From: Candidatus Omnitrophota bacterium
GTDB taxonomy: Bacteria > CAIJMQ01
Length of the DNA: 64,000 bases
Direction: 5' to 3'
Assembly (NCBI GenBank): GCA_018812925.1
Contig: JAHJCU010000004.1
Location: 244,289 to 308,288 of the forward strand
A program made the position numbers and the translations under genes. Of the stretch, positions 16,995-24,970 are shown one piece after another (the first letter of the stretch is position 1; every line of letters begins with the position of its first letter). The notes under the pieces were generated by a model. That model saw nothing but the letters and a program-made list of their open reading frames with translations, had not been told where the DNA came from and ran no database searches.

Positions 16995-17291
16995 CTATAT
17001 CTTACTAAGTTTGTCTAACCGCACCTTTTTTACAGAAGGCTTATTAATCATATTCGGCATCCAATCAGGCGCATTATCAGGTTTTTTTACTTTCACTACT
17101 TTACCCTTAAAAACATGTAATCTCCACTTGCCGTCTTTTTTTCTTGAATGTTCTCTTAATTTGATAAGACCTTCATTATCCTTTAAACCTCTTGAAGCGG
17201 CTTTTAATGCAGCAGCTCTCGGTGACCTACCCGTAAAAACATGTTTCTCCTTACTGCCTATTCTTAAAGAATACTGTTTAACTGTGTCCAT
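16995..17291 (-). CDS. MC1-family (archaeal non-histone chromosomal protein MC1-like) DNA-binding protein
   Basis: HVFTGRSPRAAALKAASRG, IKLRE...HVFKG and PDWMPNMINKPSVKKVRLDKL align along the whole length with Methanosarcina MC1 as I recall it (GVFTGKQPRQAALKAANRG, IRLRERGTKKVHVFKA, PDWMPEKISKPFVKKE). Confidence 0.7.
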   Translation of the reverse strand: MDTVKQYSLRIGSKEKHVFTGRSPRAAALKAASRGLKDNEGLIKLREHSRKKDGKWRLHVFKGKVVKVKKPDNAPDWMPNMINKPSVKKVRLDKLSKI

Positions 17292-18281: not shown

Positions 18282-18962
18282 TCAACTCTCAACTATTTTC
18301 CCGTCTACAATTCTTATAATACGGTCCATCTTAAGCGCCAACTCTTCCTGATGGGTGGCTATAAATAATGTCCCCCCCATATTTCGTATTAAATTTAACA
18401 TAAGCTCTACAATTTTTTCTGCCGTTGCCTTATCAAGATTACCGGTGGGTTCATCCGCAAATAAAATTATAGGTTCATTTATTATAGCTCTGCCAACAGC
18501 CACTCTTTGCTGCTCTCCACCGGATAAAGCATATGGATAATGAGAAGCTCTTTGTGTAAGTTTTAATTCTTTCAGAATTTCTTTTGCTTTTTCTTTGACT
18601 TCGAATAAAAGTTGTTTATCTATTAAACCTGGTAACATGATGTTTTCCAATGCAGAAAGTTCGGGCAATAAATTAAAAAACTGAAATACGAACCCCATGT
18701 CTTTTTTCCTCAAATCAGCTCTTTGTTCATCCGAAAATTTGAGAATATCCTGTCCCTTCCAATAAATTTTGCCTTTAGATGGTCTTTCCAGTCCCGCCAA
18801 AAGACAAAGAAGAGTAGATTTACCCGCACCCGAAGAACCCAGCAAAGCAATTGACTGGCCTTCGTAAATTTCCAAATCAATTCCTCTTATCACTTCCAAG
18901 GAACTTTCACCTACCGGATAACTTTTGTGTAAACCCACGGCTTTTATCAAAGGGCTACTCAT
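18282..18962 (-). CDS. lolD: Lipoprotein-releasing system ATP-binding protein LolD (ABC ATPase)
   Basis: Walker A GSSGAGKST, signature LSGGEQQRVA, Walker B ILFADEPT. Overlaps the upstream permease gene by 8 nt. Confidence 0.85.
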   Translation of the reverse strand: MSSPLIKAVGLHKSYPVGESSLEVIRGIDLEIYEGQSIALLGSSGAGKSTLLCLLAGLERPSKGKIYWKGQDILKFSDEQRADLRKKDMGFVFQFFNLLPELSALENIMLPGLIDKQLLFEVKEKAKEILKELKLTQRASHYPYALSGGEQQRVAVGRAIINEPIILFADEPTGNLDKATAEKIVELMLNLIRNMGGTLFIATHQEELALKMDRIIRIVDGKIVES

Positions 18963-20202
18963 ATCTTAAAGTCTCCCCAACTGTTAGTTTCGATGCTCTT
19001 GATGCGGGATAAATCGTTGCAAGAAGACATATGAATAACGCCAATAATCCCACTACGGCAAACATCGTCCACTCCAGTTTAATGGGTAGATACGGCATAG
19101 AATATATTTCTTCGGACAGAGCAATAAAATGATATTTTTTGAGCAATATCCCAAGAACAAGACCAACAAGGCAACCTAATACCGCCCCGCAAAAACCAAT
19201 AATCAAACCTTGATATAAAAATATTTTCCTGATATCGGCAGAAGTGGCTCCTATGGCTTTAAGTATTCCTATCTGTCTTTTCTTTTCCATCACCATTACA
19301 ATCAATGTGGAAGCGATATTGAAAGACGCAACGATTACTATAAGAGTAAGAATAGTAAACATTGCTATTTTTTCAAGTTTCAACGCCTCGAAAAGCGTTC
19401 TATCCGTTTCCTGCCAAGTCCTTACTATAGATGCAGGACCAAGAAGAACCTGCAGTTTTTCTTTTACGGCTGGCGCTTTAAATACATCTTCTATTTTAAC
19501 TTGTATTCCGTCATACTCGCTTCCCAATCCGAGTAAATCCCGCGCATCTTCCAAAGACAAAAACACAAGCGAATTGTCATATTCGTACATTCCGGAATTA
19601 AAAAACCCTTTAACTTTAAACTTCTTAACTTTTAACTGCGTGGAAATAAGAGATACTTCGTCGTAATCAAAGAGACCTAAACCCTTCGCAAGTTCTTCGC
19701 CGATTAAAATCCCGCCATCTAAATCCGCTAATTCTGCAGCGTTCTTTTGTGGTTCTAAAACAAATTCATCCATTAAAACAGGTTTAATATATTTCTTTAA
19801 ATCCGTAACTTTGATTTCTTTCTGGAAATCAATGCCTTTAATTATTATTCCCTTAGCTCTTTCACGACACTGCAAAATTCCTTCGCCCCAAAGAACAGGG
19901 GAACTGGCAACAACACCATCCACTTGCTCTATTTTTTCGATAGTGGAAGATAAACCGTTAGAATCAGGAGAAAACATATTGACAACAATGTGCGGTTTTA
20001 ATCCCAATATCTTGTTTCTGATTTCTTCGCTAAATCCATTCATCACGCCCATCACAACAATAATCGCCGCAACCCCAAGCGCAATACCCAATATTGAAAT
20101 AAAAGTAGCAAAGGAAAGAAACCTCTTCCCCTTGCTCTTCATATGCCTAACCGCTAAAAAAAATCTGTAATCCATAGGTTTTAAAGATAAATCAAATATC
20201 AA
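18955..20202 (-). CDS. lolE: Lipoprotein-releasing system permease LolC/E (FtsX-like)
   Basis: MacB-like periplasmic domain between TM1 and TM2. C-terminal FtsX 3-TM bundle. Confidence 0.8.
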   Translation of the reverse strand: MIFDLSLKPMDYRFFLAVRHMKSKGKRFLSFATFISILGIALGVAAIIVVMGVMNGFSEEIRNKILGLKPHIVVNMFSPDSNGLSSTIEKIEQVDGVVASSPVLWGEGILQCRERAKGIIIKGIDFQKEIKVTDLKKYIKPVLMDEFVLEPQKNAAELADLDGGILIGEELAKGLGLFDYDEVSLISTQLKVKKFKVKGFFNSGMYEYDNSLVFLSLEDARDLLGLGSEYDGIQVKIEDVFKAPAVKEKLQVLLGPASIVRTWQETDRTLFEALKLEKIAMFTILTLIVIVASFNIASTLIVMVMEKKRQIGILKAIGATSADIRKIFLYQGLIIGFCGAVLGCLVGLVLGILLKKYHFIALSEEIYSMPYLPIKLEWTMFAVVGLLALFICLLATIYPASRASKLTVGETLRYE

Positions 20203-20271
20203 AAATTAAAAATCAAATATACGTATAAAAAATTAAAAAATAGGATAGAGACCATAGCCCTTACAAACCCA

Positions 20272-22137
20272 TTATTCCCCTTTATCATCTCCAAAAAAAG
20301 CCGCAGGGCCAACTTTCTTTTTTATCTCGAAAGACTTTTTTGCCAAATCAAAAGCCATGCCTAAATCTGCTTCGTCACATTTGTGGCAAGCGACTCTAAC
20401 AAGACCCCCCATTGTATATTTCTTGCCCGTTATATCTCTAAATGGACAATCTATATCTAGTAAGTCTTTTGGTGTTAAGCGAAGTGGAGCAATAGTAAGT
20501 TTTGATTTTTGGGGAAAAATACTAAAAAAAGGACCAACACCAATTCCGTCGTCAAAACTAAATTGACTCCTATCAACACGGACACTTATATTGTTGCTTA
20601 AAGCCAATATTTTATAAGTCAACTGTTTACAAAAATCAAGATGATATTTTAAAAACTTCAAGTTTTTCATATCTGGACCAAATAAAGATGCTTGTCCCCA
20701 TAATAATCCTAATGATGTTTTATCAAACTTTCTCATATGGGTAGATATTATAGTTTTTGCCTCTTGTTTGCTGATGAAGTGGGCCGGTATCTCGTCAATT
20801 TCTCGTTTAATTACTTCCCCTCTCTGTTGTATATCTACAACTCTTAACAAACCTAGATTTCCCCGAGTAAAGTATTCCTTCGGGGTTTCCCATTTCGGGA
20901 ATTTAGATATATGCACTTCTAGTATCCGTTCCAATTCAGTAAACAACAAAAAAGTAGAATAGGAAGCGTTATCGGAGTGAAATACTATAGGAATATCTTC
21001 TAAGAACCTCTCTCTATTATGTCCTATTTCCCCTATTTCCTCGCATTTGCAACGGAATTTTACGATGTTTCGATGAAAGAAATACACATTTATTGGATAT
21101 CTAATCTGCTCTAAATACTGGGTGGAATATACTCCTCCCATTCTCCAGACAAATTTATCATGTTCAGAGATGAAATCTTCATAGATATCCATTTTCTTCC
21201 AACTATCTGTTGCAAGTAAAAATGCCATCTTTTTCTCCGGTAGAATCAGAAAAGGGTTCCCAATTTTCTGTTTAATTATTTCCCACTCACTATTAGTAAC
21301 TGGGAAATTCGTACCCTCTGGCCGTCTTAATATACTGAGATTTCTAAGCCCTTCTATGTTCTTTAGTTCTTTGCGCAGGATAGGATTGTTTATTAATTTT
21401 TTGATAATTTTTATTTTAGCCATCCATCGTTCCTTCATAAACTTTTTTTCGTCAATCCGATATTTGTCAGGTCCTGCTGGGTTAGAATTGAAGAAAGGTT
21501 CGGATATAACTTCTGCAATAGCATAAATACCAGCATCCTTACCTGACATCCAAATCAAAGCTATATCACCAATCTTGATCTTATCTTTATATTGGAAAAT
21601 GCTCCAGCCATCGATATTGCAATTGGGATCAGTCAACGCGTTCAAAATATCATATTTGTCTGGATTTGCCTGAAAAATCCAAATATTTCTGTCTTTGCTT
21701 AAAGTGACTGGCTTTTCTTCAACTTTGCTTTCTTTTGGTTGGGTTTGTTCAACATCATCAAGAAATTTATAATTATGTTTTTGCGCTAGGTTCGATATGA
21801 AAGCAAGCCCTAATTCTTTACACTCAATTCCTACGTTCTCCAAAAAAAGTTTTCTTTCGCTGGGGATAATGTTTGCGCATAGTAGAAGCTCGATTGTTTT
21901 ATGAGGATTCTGTTGCTTTAATAAGCCGTAATATTCAATGATTTGTCCGGAGGCATCTCTCGATAAAATCCCCCTTTTGACTTCAACTATAATAGTTCGA
22001 TTATATTTGTCTTCAAAAACTATATCAGCAAAACAACTTCCTATCTTAACTTGTTGCCCAATAAGCTTAAAACCAGAATTAGGGAAGAAATCTTCGGGAT
22101 ATTGGGCGATAAGATTTTCTATATCTTTTTCCAACAT
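20272..22137 (-). CDS. PD-(D/E)xK nuclease (NucS/DUF91-like) - EVE (PUA-like) domain fusion with a roughly 330-aa uncharacterised C-terminal domain. Candidate modification-dependent restriction enzyme.
   Basis: N-terminus GSCFADIVFEDKYNRTIIVEVKRG matches the D...(D/E)xK core. Residues around 150-215 (WIFQANPDKYDI...IGDIALIWMSGKDAGIYAIAEVISEP) match the EVE/PUA-like signature. The remainder is unrecognised. Confidence 0.55.
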   Translation of the reverse strand: MLEKDIENLIAQYPEDFFPNSGFKLIGQQVKIGSCFADIVFEDKYNRTIIVEVKRGILSRDASGQIIEYYGLLKQQNPHKTIELLLCANIIPSERKLFLENVGIECKELGLAFISNLAQKHNYKFLDDVEQTQPKESKVEEKPVTLSKDRNIWIFQANPDKYDILNALTDPNCNIDGWSIFQYKDKIKIGDIALIWMSGKDAGIYAIAEVISEPFFNSNPAGPDKYRIDEKKFMKERWMAKIKIIKKLINNPILRKELKNIEGLRNLSILRRPEGTNFPVTNSEWEIIKQKIGNPFLILPEKKMAFLLATDSWKKMDIYEDFISEHDKFVWRMGGVYSTQYLEQIRYPINVYFFHRNIVKFRCKCEEIGEIGHNRERFLEDIPIVFHSDNASYSTFLLFTELERILEVHISKFPKWETPKEYFTRGNLGLLRVVDIQQRGEVIKREIDEIPAHFISKQEAKTIISTHMRKFDKTSLGLLWGQASLFGPDMKNLKFLKYHLDFCKQLTYKILALSNNISVRVDRSQFSFDDGIGVGPFFSIFPQKSKLTIAPLRLTPKDLLDIDCPFRDITGKKYTMGGLVRVACHKCDEADLGMAFDLAKKSFEIKKKVGPAAFFGDDKGE

Positions 22138-22255
22138 AATTACCGTCTATTTTTGTAGGATTTTAAACTTAAAACTTATAACTTACCACTTAATACTATT
22201 TATCCCTTTTTCTCTTTTCTGACTTCTGTCCTCTGTCTTCTGTTATCTGTCTTTT

Positions 22256-23707
22256 TCACGCTTCCGGTCTAAGCAACGGAAACAGAATAACATCGCGGAT
22301 GGATTTGGAATCTGTAAGAAGCATTGTAAGGCGGTCGATTCCTATTCCCAATCCTGCGGTGGGCGGCATACCGTATTCCAACGCCGTTATGAAATCTTTA
22401 TCAAGAGGATGCGCCTCTTCGTCTCCTTTATCACGCATTTGTGTTTGTTTTTTAAACCTTTTTTCCTGTTCTCTCGGGTCGTTTAATTCCGTGTAAGCGT
22501 TGCCCAATTCAAGAGCGCCGATAAACGGCTGGAATCTTTCGACTATTTTACCTTCACTGCCTTTCTTTTCTTTTGCCAATGGCGAAAGTTCAATAGGGAA
22601 ATCCGTCACAAAAATCGGCTGAATAAAATTGGGGATTGCAAATTTTTTGAACAATGAATCCAAGATATGCCAAAAAGAATCGTCCGCGTCAACCCCTTTT
22701 TTCTTTGCTTCTTTTCTTATTTGTTCTTCCGAATCCTTCTCCACATCTATCCCGCAATATTTTTTAAACGCTTCTGCGTAAGTAATCCTTTCCCATTTTT
22801 CGGGGAAAGAGATTTTCTGGGATTGATAAATGACTTCATTACTGCCTTTAGTTTCTTTGACTAATTCATTGAACATTTGTTCTGTAAATTCCATTAAATC
22901 CTCGTAATCGGCATATGCCCAATAAAGTTCGAGCATCGTAAATTCCGGATTATGCCTTGTGGAAGTGCCCTCATTCCTGAAATTCCTGTTGAGCTCGTAG
23001 ATTTTTTCATATCCTCCGACAATTAACTTTTTAAGGTAAAGTTCGGGAGCAATCCTTAAATAAAGGTCAATATCTAAAGCGTTATGGTGGGTAATAAACG
23101 GCTTTGCTAAAGCGCCTCCGGGAAGTGGCTGCATCATTGGCGTTTCTACTTCTATAAAACTGTGCTTATTTAGAAAACTTCTCATACCGGTTATTATTTT
23201 GCTTCTTGTAAGAAAGATATCTTTAACTTCACCGTTCATTACCAAATCCAGATACCGCTGTCGGTATCTTGTTTCCACATCCTGTAGGCCATACCACTTT
23301 TGAGGAAGCGGATTTAAACACTTTGTTAAAGGCAAAAGTTCTTTTGCAACTATAGTAATTTCTCCGGTTCTTGTTTTAAAAACTTCACCGCTTACACCTA
23401 TATGGTCGCCAATATCCAATAATTGTAAAATTTCATAAGTTTCTTGCCCGACCGTATCCAGCTTGTAATAAACCTGAACTTTTGAATCTTTGTCTTGAAT
23501 ATCCATAAAAGTCGATTTGCCGTGTTCTCTAACACTCATTATCCTGCCTGCGACTTTTACGGGTTTGCCTTCAAATTCTTTGAATTGTTGATTAACTTGG
23601 CTTAACGAGCAGGAAATTGAAAATTTATTACTAAAAGGCTCTACGCCCTTTTCTTCCAATTTATTAAGTTTTTCTTCTCTTACCTTCGAAAGTTCGTCGC
23701 GTTTCAT
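22256..23707 (-). CDS. lysS: Lysyl-tRNA synthetase (class II)
   Basis: N-terminal OB anticodon-binding domain, class II motifs FRNEG, GLGIGIDRL. Confidence 0.95.
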   Translation of the reverse strand: MKRDELSKVREEKLNKLEEKGVEPFSNKFSISCSLSQVNQQFKEFEGKPVKVAGRIMSVREHGKSTFMDIQDKDSKVQVYYKLDTVGQETYEILQLLDIGDHIGVSGEVFKTRTGEITIVAKELLPLTKCLNPLPQKWYGLQDVETRYRQRYLDLVMNGEVKDIFLTRSKIITGMRSFLNKHSFIEVETPMMQPLPGGALAKPFITHHNALDIDLYLRIAPELYLKKLIVGGYEKIYELNRNFRNEGTSTRHNPEFTMLELYWAYADYEDLMEFTEQMFNELVKETKGSNEVIYQSQKISFPEKWERITYAEAFKKYCGIDVEKDSEEQIRKEAKKKGVDADDSFWHILDSLFKKFAIPNFIQPIFVTDFPIELSPLAKEKKGSEGKIVERFQPFIGALELGNAYTELNDPREQEKRFKKQTQMRDKGDEEAHPLDKDFITALEYGMPPTAGLGIGIDRLTMLLTDSKSIRDVILFPLLRPEA

Positions 23708-23890: not shown

Positions 23891-24970
23891 ATGAAAAAGC
23901 TAGAGTTTATTGTACCCCCGCAAACTTATCAAAAAGCGGAGCCAAAGGGGAAAATAAAAAAAGAAAGCGTAGTAGACCCATACTTGCATCTTGTCAGAAG
24001 CCTAAGCCAACTTATGAGCACAAATAAACTTTATGGAACTAACCATAAAATATTCAAAGAGCATTTGAAGCAAGTCTTTCCGGAAGTCAGCAAATTGCTG
24101 TTGGAAAAGAAATCTATTTCTTTTTTTGAAACAGATAATACTCTTTTAGTAAACCGCAAAAAGATTGAAACTAACGATGGATTGACTAAACGGCTACTGA
24201 GAAGTCTTTGCGATCTATCAGTGGGATACCTAATATTAGAATCAGGACTAACCCTTGAAGAATTTATAGTTTTTATACGTCTGTTATGTAACGAAGAACC
24301 TCTAAAGGGAGAAGAAAATATAAAGCAATACTTAAAAGAAAAAGGGGCTAATCACGTACTTGTCCGTTCTGCTACTTACAAATTAGTTGAGGAAGACGAG
24401 AAAGTTGTAAAAAAAGGCGAGGTTCTGGCAATTGAAGAGCTCTCTTTTGAGATACGTAATAGATTTTTACAAGATTTGAAAAACGGAGAGGTAGGCAAAA
24501 AACTCGTAAAAGAAGAACGAAAATATAGAGAGTTAGCCCACGACCCTTCTTTCCTTTCTAAGGCAATATTTGATTTAGCCAAAAATAAAGATAACCCCGA
24601 AGACCTTGCAAAAATTATTTGGTTGATTGGCGACTATATGATAGGTGAAATTGATACCGCTAGAGAAGAAAAAATTAATCGTATAGCAATAGAGAAACTA
24701 AAAAAACAGATATTCATTTTATGGAGAGAGAAGATAAGTAAACCAGATATGGAGAAACATATTCAAAAAACCTTTACCGCAATAAGTCTTGCTTCAAAGA
24801 TTAAAGGATTAATCTTGCTTTATGAAAAATATACAAAAAACTTGGAAAAGAATGCGTCCCAAATTCAGAAAATATTAGAAACACTACCTAAAGAAAGCCA
24901 GTTATATCAGCAAACAAAAGAAAAATTAGACAAAATCGGCTTATTCCCTCCCCAAAAAACGAATAAATAA
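23891..24970 (+). CDS. Hypothetical protein (359 aa, K/E-rich, no recognised domain)
   Basis: Long ORF with coding-like composition. No family recognised by inspection. Confidence 0.4.
   Translation: MKKLEFIVPPQTYQKAEPKGKIKKESVVDPYLHLVRSLSQLMSTNKLYGTNHKIFKEHLKQVFPEVSKLLLEKKSISFFETDNTLLVNRKKIETNDGLTKRLLRSLCDLSVGYLILESGLTLEEFIVFIRLLCNEEPLKGEENIKQYLKEKGANHVLVRSATYKLVEEDEKVVKKGEVLAIEELSFEIRNRFLQDLKNGEVGKKLVKEERKYRELAHDPSFLSKAIFDLAKNKDNPEDLAKIIWLIGDYMIGEIDTAREEKINRIAIEKLKKQIFILWREKISKPDMEKHIQKTFTAISLASKIKGLILLYEKYTKNLEKNASQIQKILETLPKESQLYQQTKEKLDKIGLFPPQKTNK

What the first reader, a model, noticed from the sequence alone, without database searches (positions are those of the whole stretch)
20272..22137. 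Stand-alone nuclease-EVE fusion protein: candidate modification-dependent (type IV-like) restriction/defence enzyme with a large unknown C-terminal domain
The 621-aa product is one polypeptide with three parts.
1. A NucS/DUF91-style PD-(D/E)xK nuclease core (ADIVFEDKYNRTIIVEVKRG).
2. An EVE/PUA-like modified-base reader (WIFQANPDKYDI...GDIALIWMSGKDAGIYAIAEVISEP).
3. About 330 residues with no recognisable family.
EVE domains fused to nucleases are the hallmark of modification-dependent restriction (McrB-N, SRA/EVE-HNH families). This exact three-part arrangement is not one I recognise.
The gene sits alone between lolDE and lysS. It is separated from lysS by a low-complexity AGACAG-unit spacer, consistent with an inserted defence gene.
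Basis: partly seen in the sequence, partly recalled or inferred. Interest (0 to 1): 0.75.

Follow-up and report, generated by a model that had tools for sequence, protein, structure and literature searches.

The report
Four-domain modified-DNA restriction nuclease candidate
This gene in an uncultured Omnitrophota bacterium most likely encodes a one-protein phage-defence nuclease that cuts DNA carrying modified bases; it is a more elaborate version of a known enzyme type and sits in a small chromosomal slot that holds different defence or toxin genes in related bacteria.

Summary
A 621-aa ORF (20272-22137, minus strand) lies between lysS and lolE. Pfam places a NucS-type PD-(D/E)xK nuclease at residues 3-110, with an intact D38/E52/K54 triad, and an EVE domain at 151-289. 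The "unknown 330 residues" are two separate mobile modules. X (about 303-435) is a second PUA-superfamily fold (ASCH/YTH/EVE-like) with no Pfam family, and elsewhere it is fused to HNH nucleases. Y (about 469-621) is a divergent DUF5655/YdhG/YjbR-like domain, and elsewhere it is fused to GIY-YIG or NucS-like nucleases. In close relatives the lysS-lolE slot instead holds toxin-antitoxin pairs or unrelated ORFs, with sharp shared breakpoints, so the gene lies in a replaceable 1.95-kb segment. The type IV (modification-dependent) restriction reading is supported by inference only. EVE-PD-(D/E)xK enzymes were predicted in 2020. Madara, a NucS-like nuclease with an EVE-like domain, was shown in 2026 to restrict glucosyl-hmC T4. 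What is new is the four-domain arrangement, the unclassified reader-like family X, and the variable slot. Verdict: new variant of a known kind, moderate interest.

The parts
20272..22137 (-). Whole ORF, 621 aa, including the stop codon
   Evidence: The identical protein is on at least 6 independent contigs.
21808..22131 (-). Residues 3-110: NucS_C-type PD-(D/E)xK nuclease domain
   Evidence: Pfam PF01939, E 6e-9, above the cut-off. Aligns to NucS/EndoMS structures 2vld and 5gke.
21976..22026 (-). Catalytic motif D38 ... E52-x-K54 (ADIVFEDKYNRTIIVEVK)
   Evidence: Aligns residue for residue to D160/E174/K176 of P. abyssi NucS. Invariant in 8 related nuclease heads, along with E3, E7, Q65 and Y69.
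21271..21687 (-). Residues 151-289: EVE domain (PUA superfamily modified-base reader)
   Evidence: Pfam PF01878, E 1.4e-19. The family profile hits EVE structures 2gbs, 2ar1 and 2eve at E 1e-8 to 2e-7.
20833..21231 (-). Residues about 303-435: module X, a second PUA-like (ASCH/YTH/EVE-like) fold with no Pfam family
20275..20733 (-). Residues about 469-621: module Y, a divergent DUF5655 / YdhG / YjbR-like alpha-beta domain
22138..22255 (-). Spacer between the lysS stop and the gene start, holding two weak 7-nt tandem arrays (22217-22253 and 22165-22197)
   Evidence: The purine array is conserved in L096 with a different copy number.
20243..22193 (.). Replaceable segment (1951 bp): the gene plus 56 nt upstream and 29 nt downstream, lacking homology to the same slot in close relatives
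   Evidence: blastn breakpoints against L096 and L094. Junction sequences.
20189..20241 (.). Right border: a conserved A/T-rich repeat tract directly upstream of lolE
22256..23707 (-). Flanking lysS (conserved left anchor of the slot)
18955..20202 (-). Flanking lolE-like permease (conserved right anchor of the slot); gene callers start it at 20175

Best explanation
The gene most likely encodes a single-polypeptide, NTP-independent, modification-dependent (type IV-like) restriction endonuclease. Shown here: the domain anatomy is an N-terminal NucS-type PD-(D/E)xK nuclease with an intact D38/E52/K54 site, then an EVE domain, then a second PUA-like fold (X), then a DUF5655/YjbR-like domain (Y). 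The gene occupies a replaceable slot between lysS and lolE. Inferred mechanism: the EVE domain flips a modified base of incoming phage or plasmid DNA into its pocket, as shown for the EVE-HNH enzyme VcaM4I. Module X provides a second modified-base or backbone contact. Module Y, whose fold class includes the 'double-wing' DNA binders YjbR and MotA C-terminal domain, adds DNA affinity or sequence context. Binding then licenses the nuclease, probably after dimerisation because each chain has only one PD-(D/E)xK site, to cut the modified DNA. The host would be spared because its own DNA lacks the recognised modification. The identity of that modification is unknown.
For: The nuclease and EVE domains score above the Pfam cut-offs. 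The catalytic triad aligns to NucS D160/E174/K176 and is invariant across 8 related heads. X has a PUA-superfamily fold by two algorithms, and in other proteins it is fused to HNH nucleases (P0005, P0020, P0027, P0037, P0055) whose HNH part matches the PADLOC 'Type IV methyl-directed restriction enzyme' model. Y is found only beside GIY-YIG/T5orf172 or NucS_C nucleases, or alone, and the Y region of a relative (P0048) matches the candidate defence system PDC-S18. The same nuclease head, 63-73% identical, is joined in other proteins to an McrB N-terminal 5mC reader or other tails, and the same EVE subtype is joined to McrB-type AAA+ proteins. Relatives sit among defence genes: X-HNH lies beside HsdR, PDDEXK_4, WYL and a ParB-methyltransferase, and stand-alone X lies near Mrr_cat and GmrSD_N. 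The lysS-lolE slot holds BrnT/CopG-antitoxin, RHH/YafQ-ParE or unrelated ORFs in relatives with 81-95% identical LolE. No methyltransferase is adjacent. Literature: EVE-PD(D/E)XK was predicted as type IV restriction (PMC7641849); VcaM4I EVE flips 5mC/5hmC (PMC7897488); a NucS-like nuclease with an iEndoIII sensor is active in defence; Madara, NucS-like plus EVE-like, restricts T4 ghmC and not T4(C), and D63A abolishes this.
Against: There are no experimental data for this protein or for any member of the X or Y families. EVE, YTH and ASCH domains also bind modified RNA, so the substrate could be RNA. The X model has only moderate confidence (pLDDT 69.5, four sequences in the alignment), the Foldseek E-values are modest (5e-3) and TM-scores are 0.36-0.56. 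The query's EVE has E where the subfamily consensus has Q in the QGTNFPV motif, and I could not map the pocket residues onto VcaM4I. Base composition does not differ from the flanks (GC 0.351 against 0.372 +/- 0.019). No integrase, target-site duplication or tRNA marks an insertion. The immediate neighbours are housekeeping genes on the same strand, so co-transcription with them is possible. One MAG copy carries a frameshift in the nuclease domain.
Confidence: 0.65

Rival explanations
1. It is an RNA-directed enzyme. The EVE and YTH/ASCH-like domains read modified RNA (for example m6A, ac4C or modified tRNA/rRNA), and the protein acts as an RNA-targeting toxin, an abortive-infection effector or an RNA quality-control factor.
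For: The best fold matches of X include m6A-RNA-binding YTH domains, the ASCH protein of Zymomonas and the ac4C amidohydrolase YqfB. PUA, EVE and ASCH domains are classically RNA-associated (PMC6765204; PMC7641849). Some type IV-like systems (CoCoNuTs) are predicted to target RNA (title and abstract). The slot holds RNase toxins (BrnT, YafQ/ParE-type) in relatives.
Against: The effector is a NucS-type PD-(D/E)xK domain, and its characterised relatives (NucS/EndoMS, END-Mag, Madara) act on DNA. The EVE subtype here co-occurs with McrB-type AAA+ proteins, and the same nuclease head co-occurs with the McrB N-terminal 5mC-DNA reader. The fold class of Y includes the double-wing DNA binders YjbR and MotA C-terminal domain.
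Confidence: 0.12
2. It is a housekeeping DNA-repair enzyme: a NucS/EndoMS-like nuclease whose reader domains sense damaged or mismatched bases, co-expressed with lysS and lolDE.
For: The nuclease domain belongs to the NucS family, a mismatch-repair endonuclease. The gene lies on the same strand as housekeeping genes, with no predicted terminator between lysS and the gene. Its composition is native-like. It is 100% conserved across several samples of this population.
Against: It lacks the NucS N-terminal domain and scores far below the NucS equivalog cut-offs (41 against 216 bits). The gene is absent from the same slot in relatives with 94-95% identical LolE, where unrelated cargo replaces it. 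No full-length homologue exists among 5.8 billion clustered proteins. All four modules shuffle with restriction-type partners.
Confidence: 0.08
3. It is a non-functional or decaying mosaic: a chance fusion of mobile defence-domain fragments that is no longer under selection.
For: The architecture is unique. One MAG copy (GCA_018822305.1) has a 1-nt deletion at gene position 188, and another contig has a homopolymer frameshift at the extreme 3' end.
Against: The ORF is intact and identical in at least 6 contigs. The catalytic residues and the family-invariant residues of EVE, X and Y are retained. The two frameshifts are single-base indels in individual assemblies and could be assembly errors.
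Confidence: 0.05

Closest known systems
Madara (PADLOC candidate PDC-S11), E. coli ECOR34; bioRxiv 10.64898/2026.09.05.749240
   Same: It has an N-terminal NucS-like PD-(D/E)XK nuclease joined by a linker to an EVE-type fold, as a single-gene system with no methyltransferase. It was shown to restrict ghmC-T4 but not unmodified T4, and a catalytic Asp mutant is dead.
   Different: Sequence similarity is confined to the nuclease core and is weak (PDC-S11 model E 0.019, 12 bits, residues 3-75). Madara's reader only 'distantly resembles' EVE, whereas this protein has a canonical Pfam EVE. The PDC-S11 model is about 358 positions long and has no counterpart of X or Y.
Predicted EVE-PD(D/E)XK type IV restriction endonucleases (Bell, Wolf and Koonin 2020, PMC7641849)
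   Same: The core logic is the same: an EVE specificity module fused to a PD-(D/E)xK nuclease. That paper also records rare nuclease-MmcQ/YjbR-EVE fusions and suggests the YjbR-like domain adds sequence specificity.
   Different: Here the nuclease is specifically NucS_C-type and N-terminal. There is a second, unclassified PUA-like domain. The YjbR-like element is a divergent DUF5655 at the C-terminus. NucS and DUF91 are not mentioned in that paper.
VcaM4I / TspA15I (EVE-HNH modification-dependent endonucleases; PMC7897488, PMC6765204)
   Different: Their nuclease is HNH and C-terminal, and they have a single reader. Module X rather than the EVE is what occurs with HNH in the relatives found here.
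YenY4I (EVE-DUF3427-PD-(D/E)XK; PMC6765204)
   Same: It combines a PUA-type reader, a second reader-like domain and a PD-(D/E)xK nuclease in one chain.
   Different: The domain order is reversed, the second domain is DUF3427 (no Pfam match here), and there is no DUF5655-like domain.
END-Mag (NucS-like PD-DExK + inactive EndoIII/Ogg1-like sensor; bioRxiv 10.1101/2025.03.31.646159)
   Same: A NucS-like nuclease serves as the effector of a modification-sensing, single-protein defence enzyme.
   Different: Its sensor is an HhH-glycosylase-like fold, not a PUA-type reader.
NucS/EndoMS mismatch endonuclease (PDB 2vld, 5gke)
   Same: The C-terminal catalytic domain fold and the D-E-K plus Q/Y active-site residues are shared.
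   Different: There is no NucS N-terminal domain, the scores are far below the NucS equivalog cut-offs, and the context and fusion partners differ.

Membership tests
NucS_C / PD-(D/E)xK nuclease domain (PF01939) | Profile match above the curated cut-off | tested here: met
   36.4 bits against a cut-off of 24, residues 3-110.
NucS_C / PD-(D/E)xK nuclease domain (PF01939) | Catalytic Asp ... Glu-x-Lys present | tested here: met
   D38/E52/K54 align to D160/E174/K176 of 2vld and are invariant in 8 heads.
NucS/EndoMS orthologue (NCBIfam NF003270 / NF002876) | Full-length match including the N-terminal DNA-binding/dimerisation domain, above the equivalog cut-off | tested here: not met
   41.2 bits against 216 and 21.4 against 252. 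Only model positions 130-235 are matched.
EVE domain (PF01878) | Profile match above the curated cut-off, and relation to solved EVE structures | tested here: met
   70.9 bits against 23. The family profile hits 2gbs, 2ar1 and 2eve.
EVE domain (PF01878) | Aromatic or hydrophobic pocket for a flipped base (P24/W82/Y130-type residues of VcaM4I) | tested here: inconclusive
   The subfamily has invariant W7, F9, Q10, P13, W32, F132 and near-invariant W50. No alignment to VcaM4I was obtained, so the equivalences are unproven.
Type IV (modification-dependent) restriction enzyme | Modified-base reader domain fused to, or paired with, a nuclease | tested here: met
   NucS_C and EVE are in one chain, together with a second PUA-like fold.
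Type IV (modification-dependent) restriction enzyme | No cognate methyltransferase in the system | tested here: met
   The neighbours are lysS and lolE/lolD, and the replaceable segment holds only this gene.
Type IV (modification-dependent) restriction enzyme | Cleavage depends on a DNA modification, and the enzyme protects against modified phage | not testable with these tools
   This needs biochemistry or a phage challenge.
Madara / PDC-S11 | Match to the PADLOC PDC-S11 models over the full length | tested here: not met
   E 0.019, 12 bits, residues 3-75 only.
PUA superfamily (ASCH/YTH/EVE), for module X | PUA-type pseudobarrel fold | tested here: met
PUA superfamily (ASCH/YTH/EVE), for module X | Sequence membership in an existing family (Pfam ASCH, YTH, EVE, SRA or DUF3427) | tested here: not met
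   No Pfam hit at E<=10. hhalign against the EVE subfamily gives probability 0.09. The profile against PDB finds nothing relevant. There is no PADLOC hit.
DUF5655 (PF18899) / YdhG-YjbR-like fold, for module Y | Profile match to PF18899 | tested here: inconclusive
   The query itself has no hit. Family members found with the X+Y profile do: P0048 (E 1.7e-18 to the profile) scores 26.8 bits against a cut-off of 24, and P0052, P0050, P0039 and P0004 fall below the cut-off.
DUF5655 (PF18899) / YdhG-YjbR-like fold, for module Y | Alpha/beta sandwich fold of the YdhG/YjbR/frataxin class | tested here: met
McrBC-type system | AAA+ GTPase McrB and McrC partner | tested here: not met
   There is no AAA+ domain in the protein or its neighbours. 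Only the EVE subtype is shared with McrB-like proteins.
Mobile element / genomic island insertion | Integrase, a tRNA target, or flanking direct or inverted repeats | tested here: not met
   No significant flanking repeats, no tRNA, no recombinase in the segment, and no GC anomaly. The variability of the slot itself is shown by comparison.

The most novel reading that the evidence does not exclude
This is a dual-reader restriction enzyme. A canonical EVE and a previously unclassified PUA-like family (X; 28 of the 42 hits among 1.84 billion protein-cluster representatives) would each bind a modified base, and a DUF5655 domain would add DNA contacts. Cleavage would then require a combination of marks, for example two modified bases, both strands, or a hypermodified base plus sequence context. 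That would make X a new modified-base sensor family and give DUF5655 its first functional role. In addition, the lysS-lolE slot, bordered by short tandem-repeat tracts, would be a recombination hotspot that exchanges single-gene defence or toxin-antitoxin cassettes in Omnitrophota without a recognisable integrase.
Probability: 0.3. Interest if true: 0.55.

Novelty: new variant of a known kind. Interest (0 to 1): 0.4.

Why it matters
Modification-dependent nucleases are both a major arm of anti-phage immunity and practical tools for mapping epigenetic bases. This locus adds three testable items:

1. A compact family of about 135-aa PUA-like domains (X) that no database classifies. They travel with HNH and NucS-type nucleases and may sense a modification different from those read by known EVE, SRA or YTH readers.
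2. A consistent association of DUF5655-like domains with GIY-YIG and NucS-type nucleases, which suggests a DNA-binding accessory role for a domain of unknown function.
3. An example, from the poorly studied phylum Omnitrophota, of a two-anchor chromosomal slot that swaps toxin-antitoxin and restriction cassettes.

None of this overturns current understanding. It extends a known design.

Tried and rejected
- **LysS scan of genome contigs.** The LolE scan of metagenomes replaced it and worked.
- **Single-sequence searches against PDB.** The whole protein gave only NucS at E 0.025. The EVE region alone gave nothing meaningful, and only the family profile worked. The X family profile gave a chance-level match to T4 endonuclease V (E 0.16), which I rejected.
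- **X as a duplicated EVE.** hhalign of X against the protein's own EVE subfamily gave probability 0.09, so I rejected that idea.
- **AFDB50 fold search.** The library was unavailable.
- **Pocket mapping onto VcaM4I.** No alignment could be obtained, so this is left inconclusive.
- **Insertion signatures.** I searched for target-site duplications or terminal inverted repeats, tRNA genes, Rfam families and a compositional anomaly. All were negative.
- **Promoter and terminator scans.** Counts were at the level of shuffled controls, so I drew no conclusion about the transcription unit.
- **Presence/absence variants in the same population.** Exact LysS and LolE look-ups found none. Only single-base frameshift variants turned up.
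- **Neighbours of stand-alone X.** Apart from an HD-domain protein there were no informative families.
- **P0005 N-terminal domain.** It matched ScoMcrA only at E 0.5, so I do not claim it is an SRA domain.
Full report
**1. Observation**

The ORF is real and lies exactly where stated: 20272..22137 on the minus strand, ATG start, 621 aa. The quoted peptides are in the translation. Pfam-A places a NucS_C domain (PF01939) at residues 3-110 (E 6e-9, 36.4 bits, cut-off 24). It places an EVE domain (PF01878) at residues 151-289 (E 1.4e-19, 70.9 bits, cut-off 23). Residues 300-621 have no Pfam match even at E<=10, whether scanned whole or in halves. The flanking genes are lysS (22256-23707) and lolE/lolD (18955-20202, 18282-18962), all on the minus strand. 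The 118-nt spacer to lysS contains a purine-rich 7-nt array, GACAGAA on the gene strand, at 22217-22253. It also holds a second 7-nt array (TAAGTTT units) at 22165-22197. The identical protein is encoded on at least six contigs from independent samples, always in the same context. A partial copy in NCBI is named as coming from a Candidatus Omnitrophica MAG, so the organism is an uncultured Omnitrophota bacterium.

**2. The nuclease**

The alignment to Pyrococcus abyssi NucS (2vld) and Thermococcus EndoMS (5gke) puts D38, E52 and K54 opposite D160, E174 and K176. It puts Q65 and Y69 opposite Q187 and Y191 (the residue numbers were counted from the printed alignment). That these are the catalytic residues of NucS is from my own knowledge of the NucS literature. 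Across eight related nuclease heads from two sub-clades, E3, E7, D38, E52, K54, Q65 and Y69 are invariant. The protein is not a NucS orthologue. It lacks the NucS N-terminal domain and scores 41 bits against an equivalog cut-off of 216.

**3. The EVE domain**

A profile of this EVE subtype hits the founding EVE structures 2gbs, 2ar1 and 2eve at E 1e-8 to 2e-7. The subtype has the motifs WIFQANP...QGTNFPV. In other proteins it is fused to McrB-type AAA+ modules (P0008-P0016) or to NucS-like heads (P0001, P0002, P0004). I could not map its pocket residues onto VcaM4I (P24/W82/Y130), so pocket integrity is unproven. The query has E where the subfamily consensus has Q in the QGTNFPV motif.

**4. 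The "unknown 330 residues" are two modules**

Searches with the C-terminal part found no full-length relative. Instead they found two non-overlapping sets of proteins. An exhaustive HMMER scan of 1.84 billion cluster representatives found only 42 proteins, and none carried both modules.

- **Module X (about 303-435).** It occurs mostly as stand-alone proteins of 135-150 aa. It is also fused to HNH nucleases (P0005, P0020, P0027, P0037, P0055). Those HNH parts match the PADLOC "Type IV methyl-directed restriction enzyme" model.
  - Foldseek independently returns only YTH and EVE domains, with probabilities of 0.9-1.0. Its E-values (5e-3 and above) and TM-scores (0.36-0.56) are modest.
  - X has no sequence relation to the protein's own EVE (hhalign probability 0.09). 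It has no Pfam, PDB-sequence or PADLOC match.
  - Its conserved positions are rich in aromatics: W16, W34-R35, Y55-F56, F116-x-K118-W119 in model numbering.
- **Module Y (about 469-621).** It occurs alone (P0021, P0025), after T5orf172/GIY-YIG nucleases (P0024, P0039, P0041, P0047, P0048, P0050, P0052), or after NucS_C heads (P0018, P0019, P0046).
  - Relatives reach Pfam DUF5655. P0048 scores 26.8 bits against a cut-off of 24, and others fall just below. The Y region of P0048 also matches the candidate defence system PDC-S18.
[quoted passage not shown] In rare nuclease-YjbR-EVE fusions they may add sequence specificity.

**5. Modularity**

The nuclease head is 58-73% identical to heads attached to quite different tails. 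These include EVE plus other tails (P0001, P0002), the McrB N-terminal 5mC-reader domain PF12102 (P0003), and an unrelated tail (P0006). P0004 has the order NucS_C-DUF5655-EVE. The protein is thus one product of intense domain shuffling among nuclease and reader modules, which is the pattern expected of modification-dependent restriction enzymes.

**6. Genomic context**

A metagenome scan with LolE found close relatives.

| Locus | LolE identity | Contents of the slot upstream of lolE |
|---|---|---|
| Window | - | the 621-aa gene |
| L096 | 95% | two unrelated ORFs (71 and 253 aa) between lysS and lolE |
| L094 | 94% | an RHH antitoxin and a YafQ/ParE-type toxin directly upstream of lolE |
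| L093 | 81% (244-kb contig) | a Pol-beta-type nucleotidyltransferase, a BrnT toxin and a CopG antitoxin between lysS and lolE |

The blastn breakpoints are sharp and shared. Homology to L096 runs from lysS to window position 22194 and resumes at 20242, and L094 resumes at 20243. The replaceable segment is therefore 20243-22193. Its left border is the purine 7-mer array, whose copy number differs in L096. Its right border is an A/T-rich repeat tract upstream of lolE.

There is no integrase, tRNA, target-site duplication or compositional anomaly. The exchange mechanism is therefore unknown, and the acquisition is either old or came from a donor of similar composition.

Relatives of the modules also sit among defence genes. 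X-HNH (P0020) lies next to HsdR, PDDEXK_4, a WYL regulator and a ParB-methyltransferase. Stand-alone X (P0023) lies within 5 kb of Mrr_cat and GmrSD_N genes.

**7. Mechanism**

- **Shown:** the domain anatomy, the retained catalytic residues, the fusion-partner statistics and the replaceable slot.
- **Inferred:** EVE, and probably X, flips and binds a modified base in foreign DNA. Y adds DNA contacts. The single PD-(D/E)xK site per chain implies dimerisation for double-strand cleavage. The host escapes because it lacks the mark.

I put about 0.65 on a modification-dependent DNA restriction function. The rivals are RNA targeting (0.12), housekeeping repair (0.08) and a decaying mosaic (0.05).

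**8. Comparison with what is known**

EVE-PD(D/E)XK and EVE-HNH architectures were catalogued as putative type IV enzymes in 2020. EVE-HNH enzymes are characterised biochemically and structurally. YenY4I is an EVE-DUF3427-PD-(D/E)XK enzyme. A NucS-like nuclease with an EndoIII-like sensor works in defence. Madara (PDC-S11), a NucS-like nuclease plus an EVE-like domain, restricts ghmC-T4 in a way that depends on its catalytic Asp.

Our protein works like these but is not a sequence member of PDC-S11 (E 0.019, nuclease core only). Its distinctive features are the canonical EVE, the extra unclassified PUA-like module X, the C-terminal DUF5655-like module, and an architecture seen in no other representative.

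**9. Verdict**

The novelty is that of a new variant of a known kind, and interest is moderate (0.4). The most novel reading not excluded is a dual-reader enzyme that defines a new modified-base sensor family, sitting in an integrase-less cassette-exchange slot (probability about 0.3).

Noticed in passing
window 16995-17291 (-): A 98-aa ORF carries a precomputed Pfam hit to PF05854 (MC1, the archaeal chromatin protein) in the matching contig annotation (L082 14847-15143). An MC1-like protein in an Omnitrophota bacterium is unusual.
   Followed up: no
window 22172-22190 (spacer); loci L083, L084, L087, L089, L090: Five Logan contigs from different runs end or begin at the same point inside the TAAGTTT 7-nt array, just inside the left border of the replaceable segment. 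This suggests a branch in the assembly graph, caused either by repeat-length heterogeneity or by co-existing alternative cassettes. No alternative junction was recovered.
   Followed up: partly
L085 7571-8783 (GCA_018822305.1) and L088 3023-4960: One MAG copy has a 1-nt deletion at gene position 188 that frameshifts the nuclease domain. Another contig has a T-homopolymer indel near the 3' end that gives a 645-aa product. These could be real inactivation or phase-like variation, or assembly errors.
   Followed up: partly
L093 2928-4994, L094 1-896, L096 1867-2988: The lysS-lolE slot in relatives holds a Pol-beta nucleotidyltransferase with BrnT and a CopG antitoxin, an RHH with a YafQ/ParE toxin, or two ORFs without any family. 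It is a small hotspot exchanging toxin-antitoxin and defence cargo without a visible recombinase.
   Followed up: yes
proteins P0003, P0006, P0001, P0002 (metagenomic, short contigs): Nuclease heads 58-73% identical to the one here are joined to different tails, including the McrB N-terminal 5mC reader (PF12102) and a tail that looks hydrophobic and possibly membrane-spanning, with a precomputed PF02595 hit (P0006). The head is being swapped between readers at a recent evolutionary timescale.
   Followed up: partly
window 23891-24970 (+): A 359-aa ORF divergent from lysS has no Pfam family but is conserved next to lysS in the 81%-LolE relative L093 (164-1240). It is a conserved gene of unknown function.
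   Followed up: no
protein P0052 (rep-search hit): The architecture GIY-YIG + DUF4357 + DUF5655-like suggests that DUF5655 is a recurrent C-terminal accessory of several nuclease families. The library searched holds only one paper mentioning DUF5655, and that one is unrelated.
   Followed up: partly
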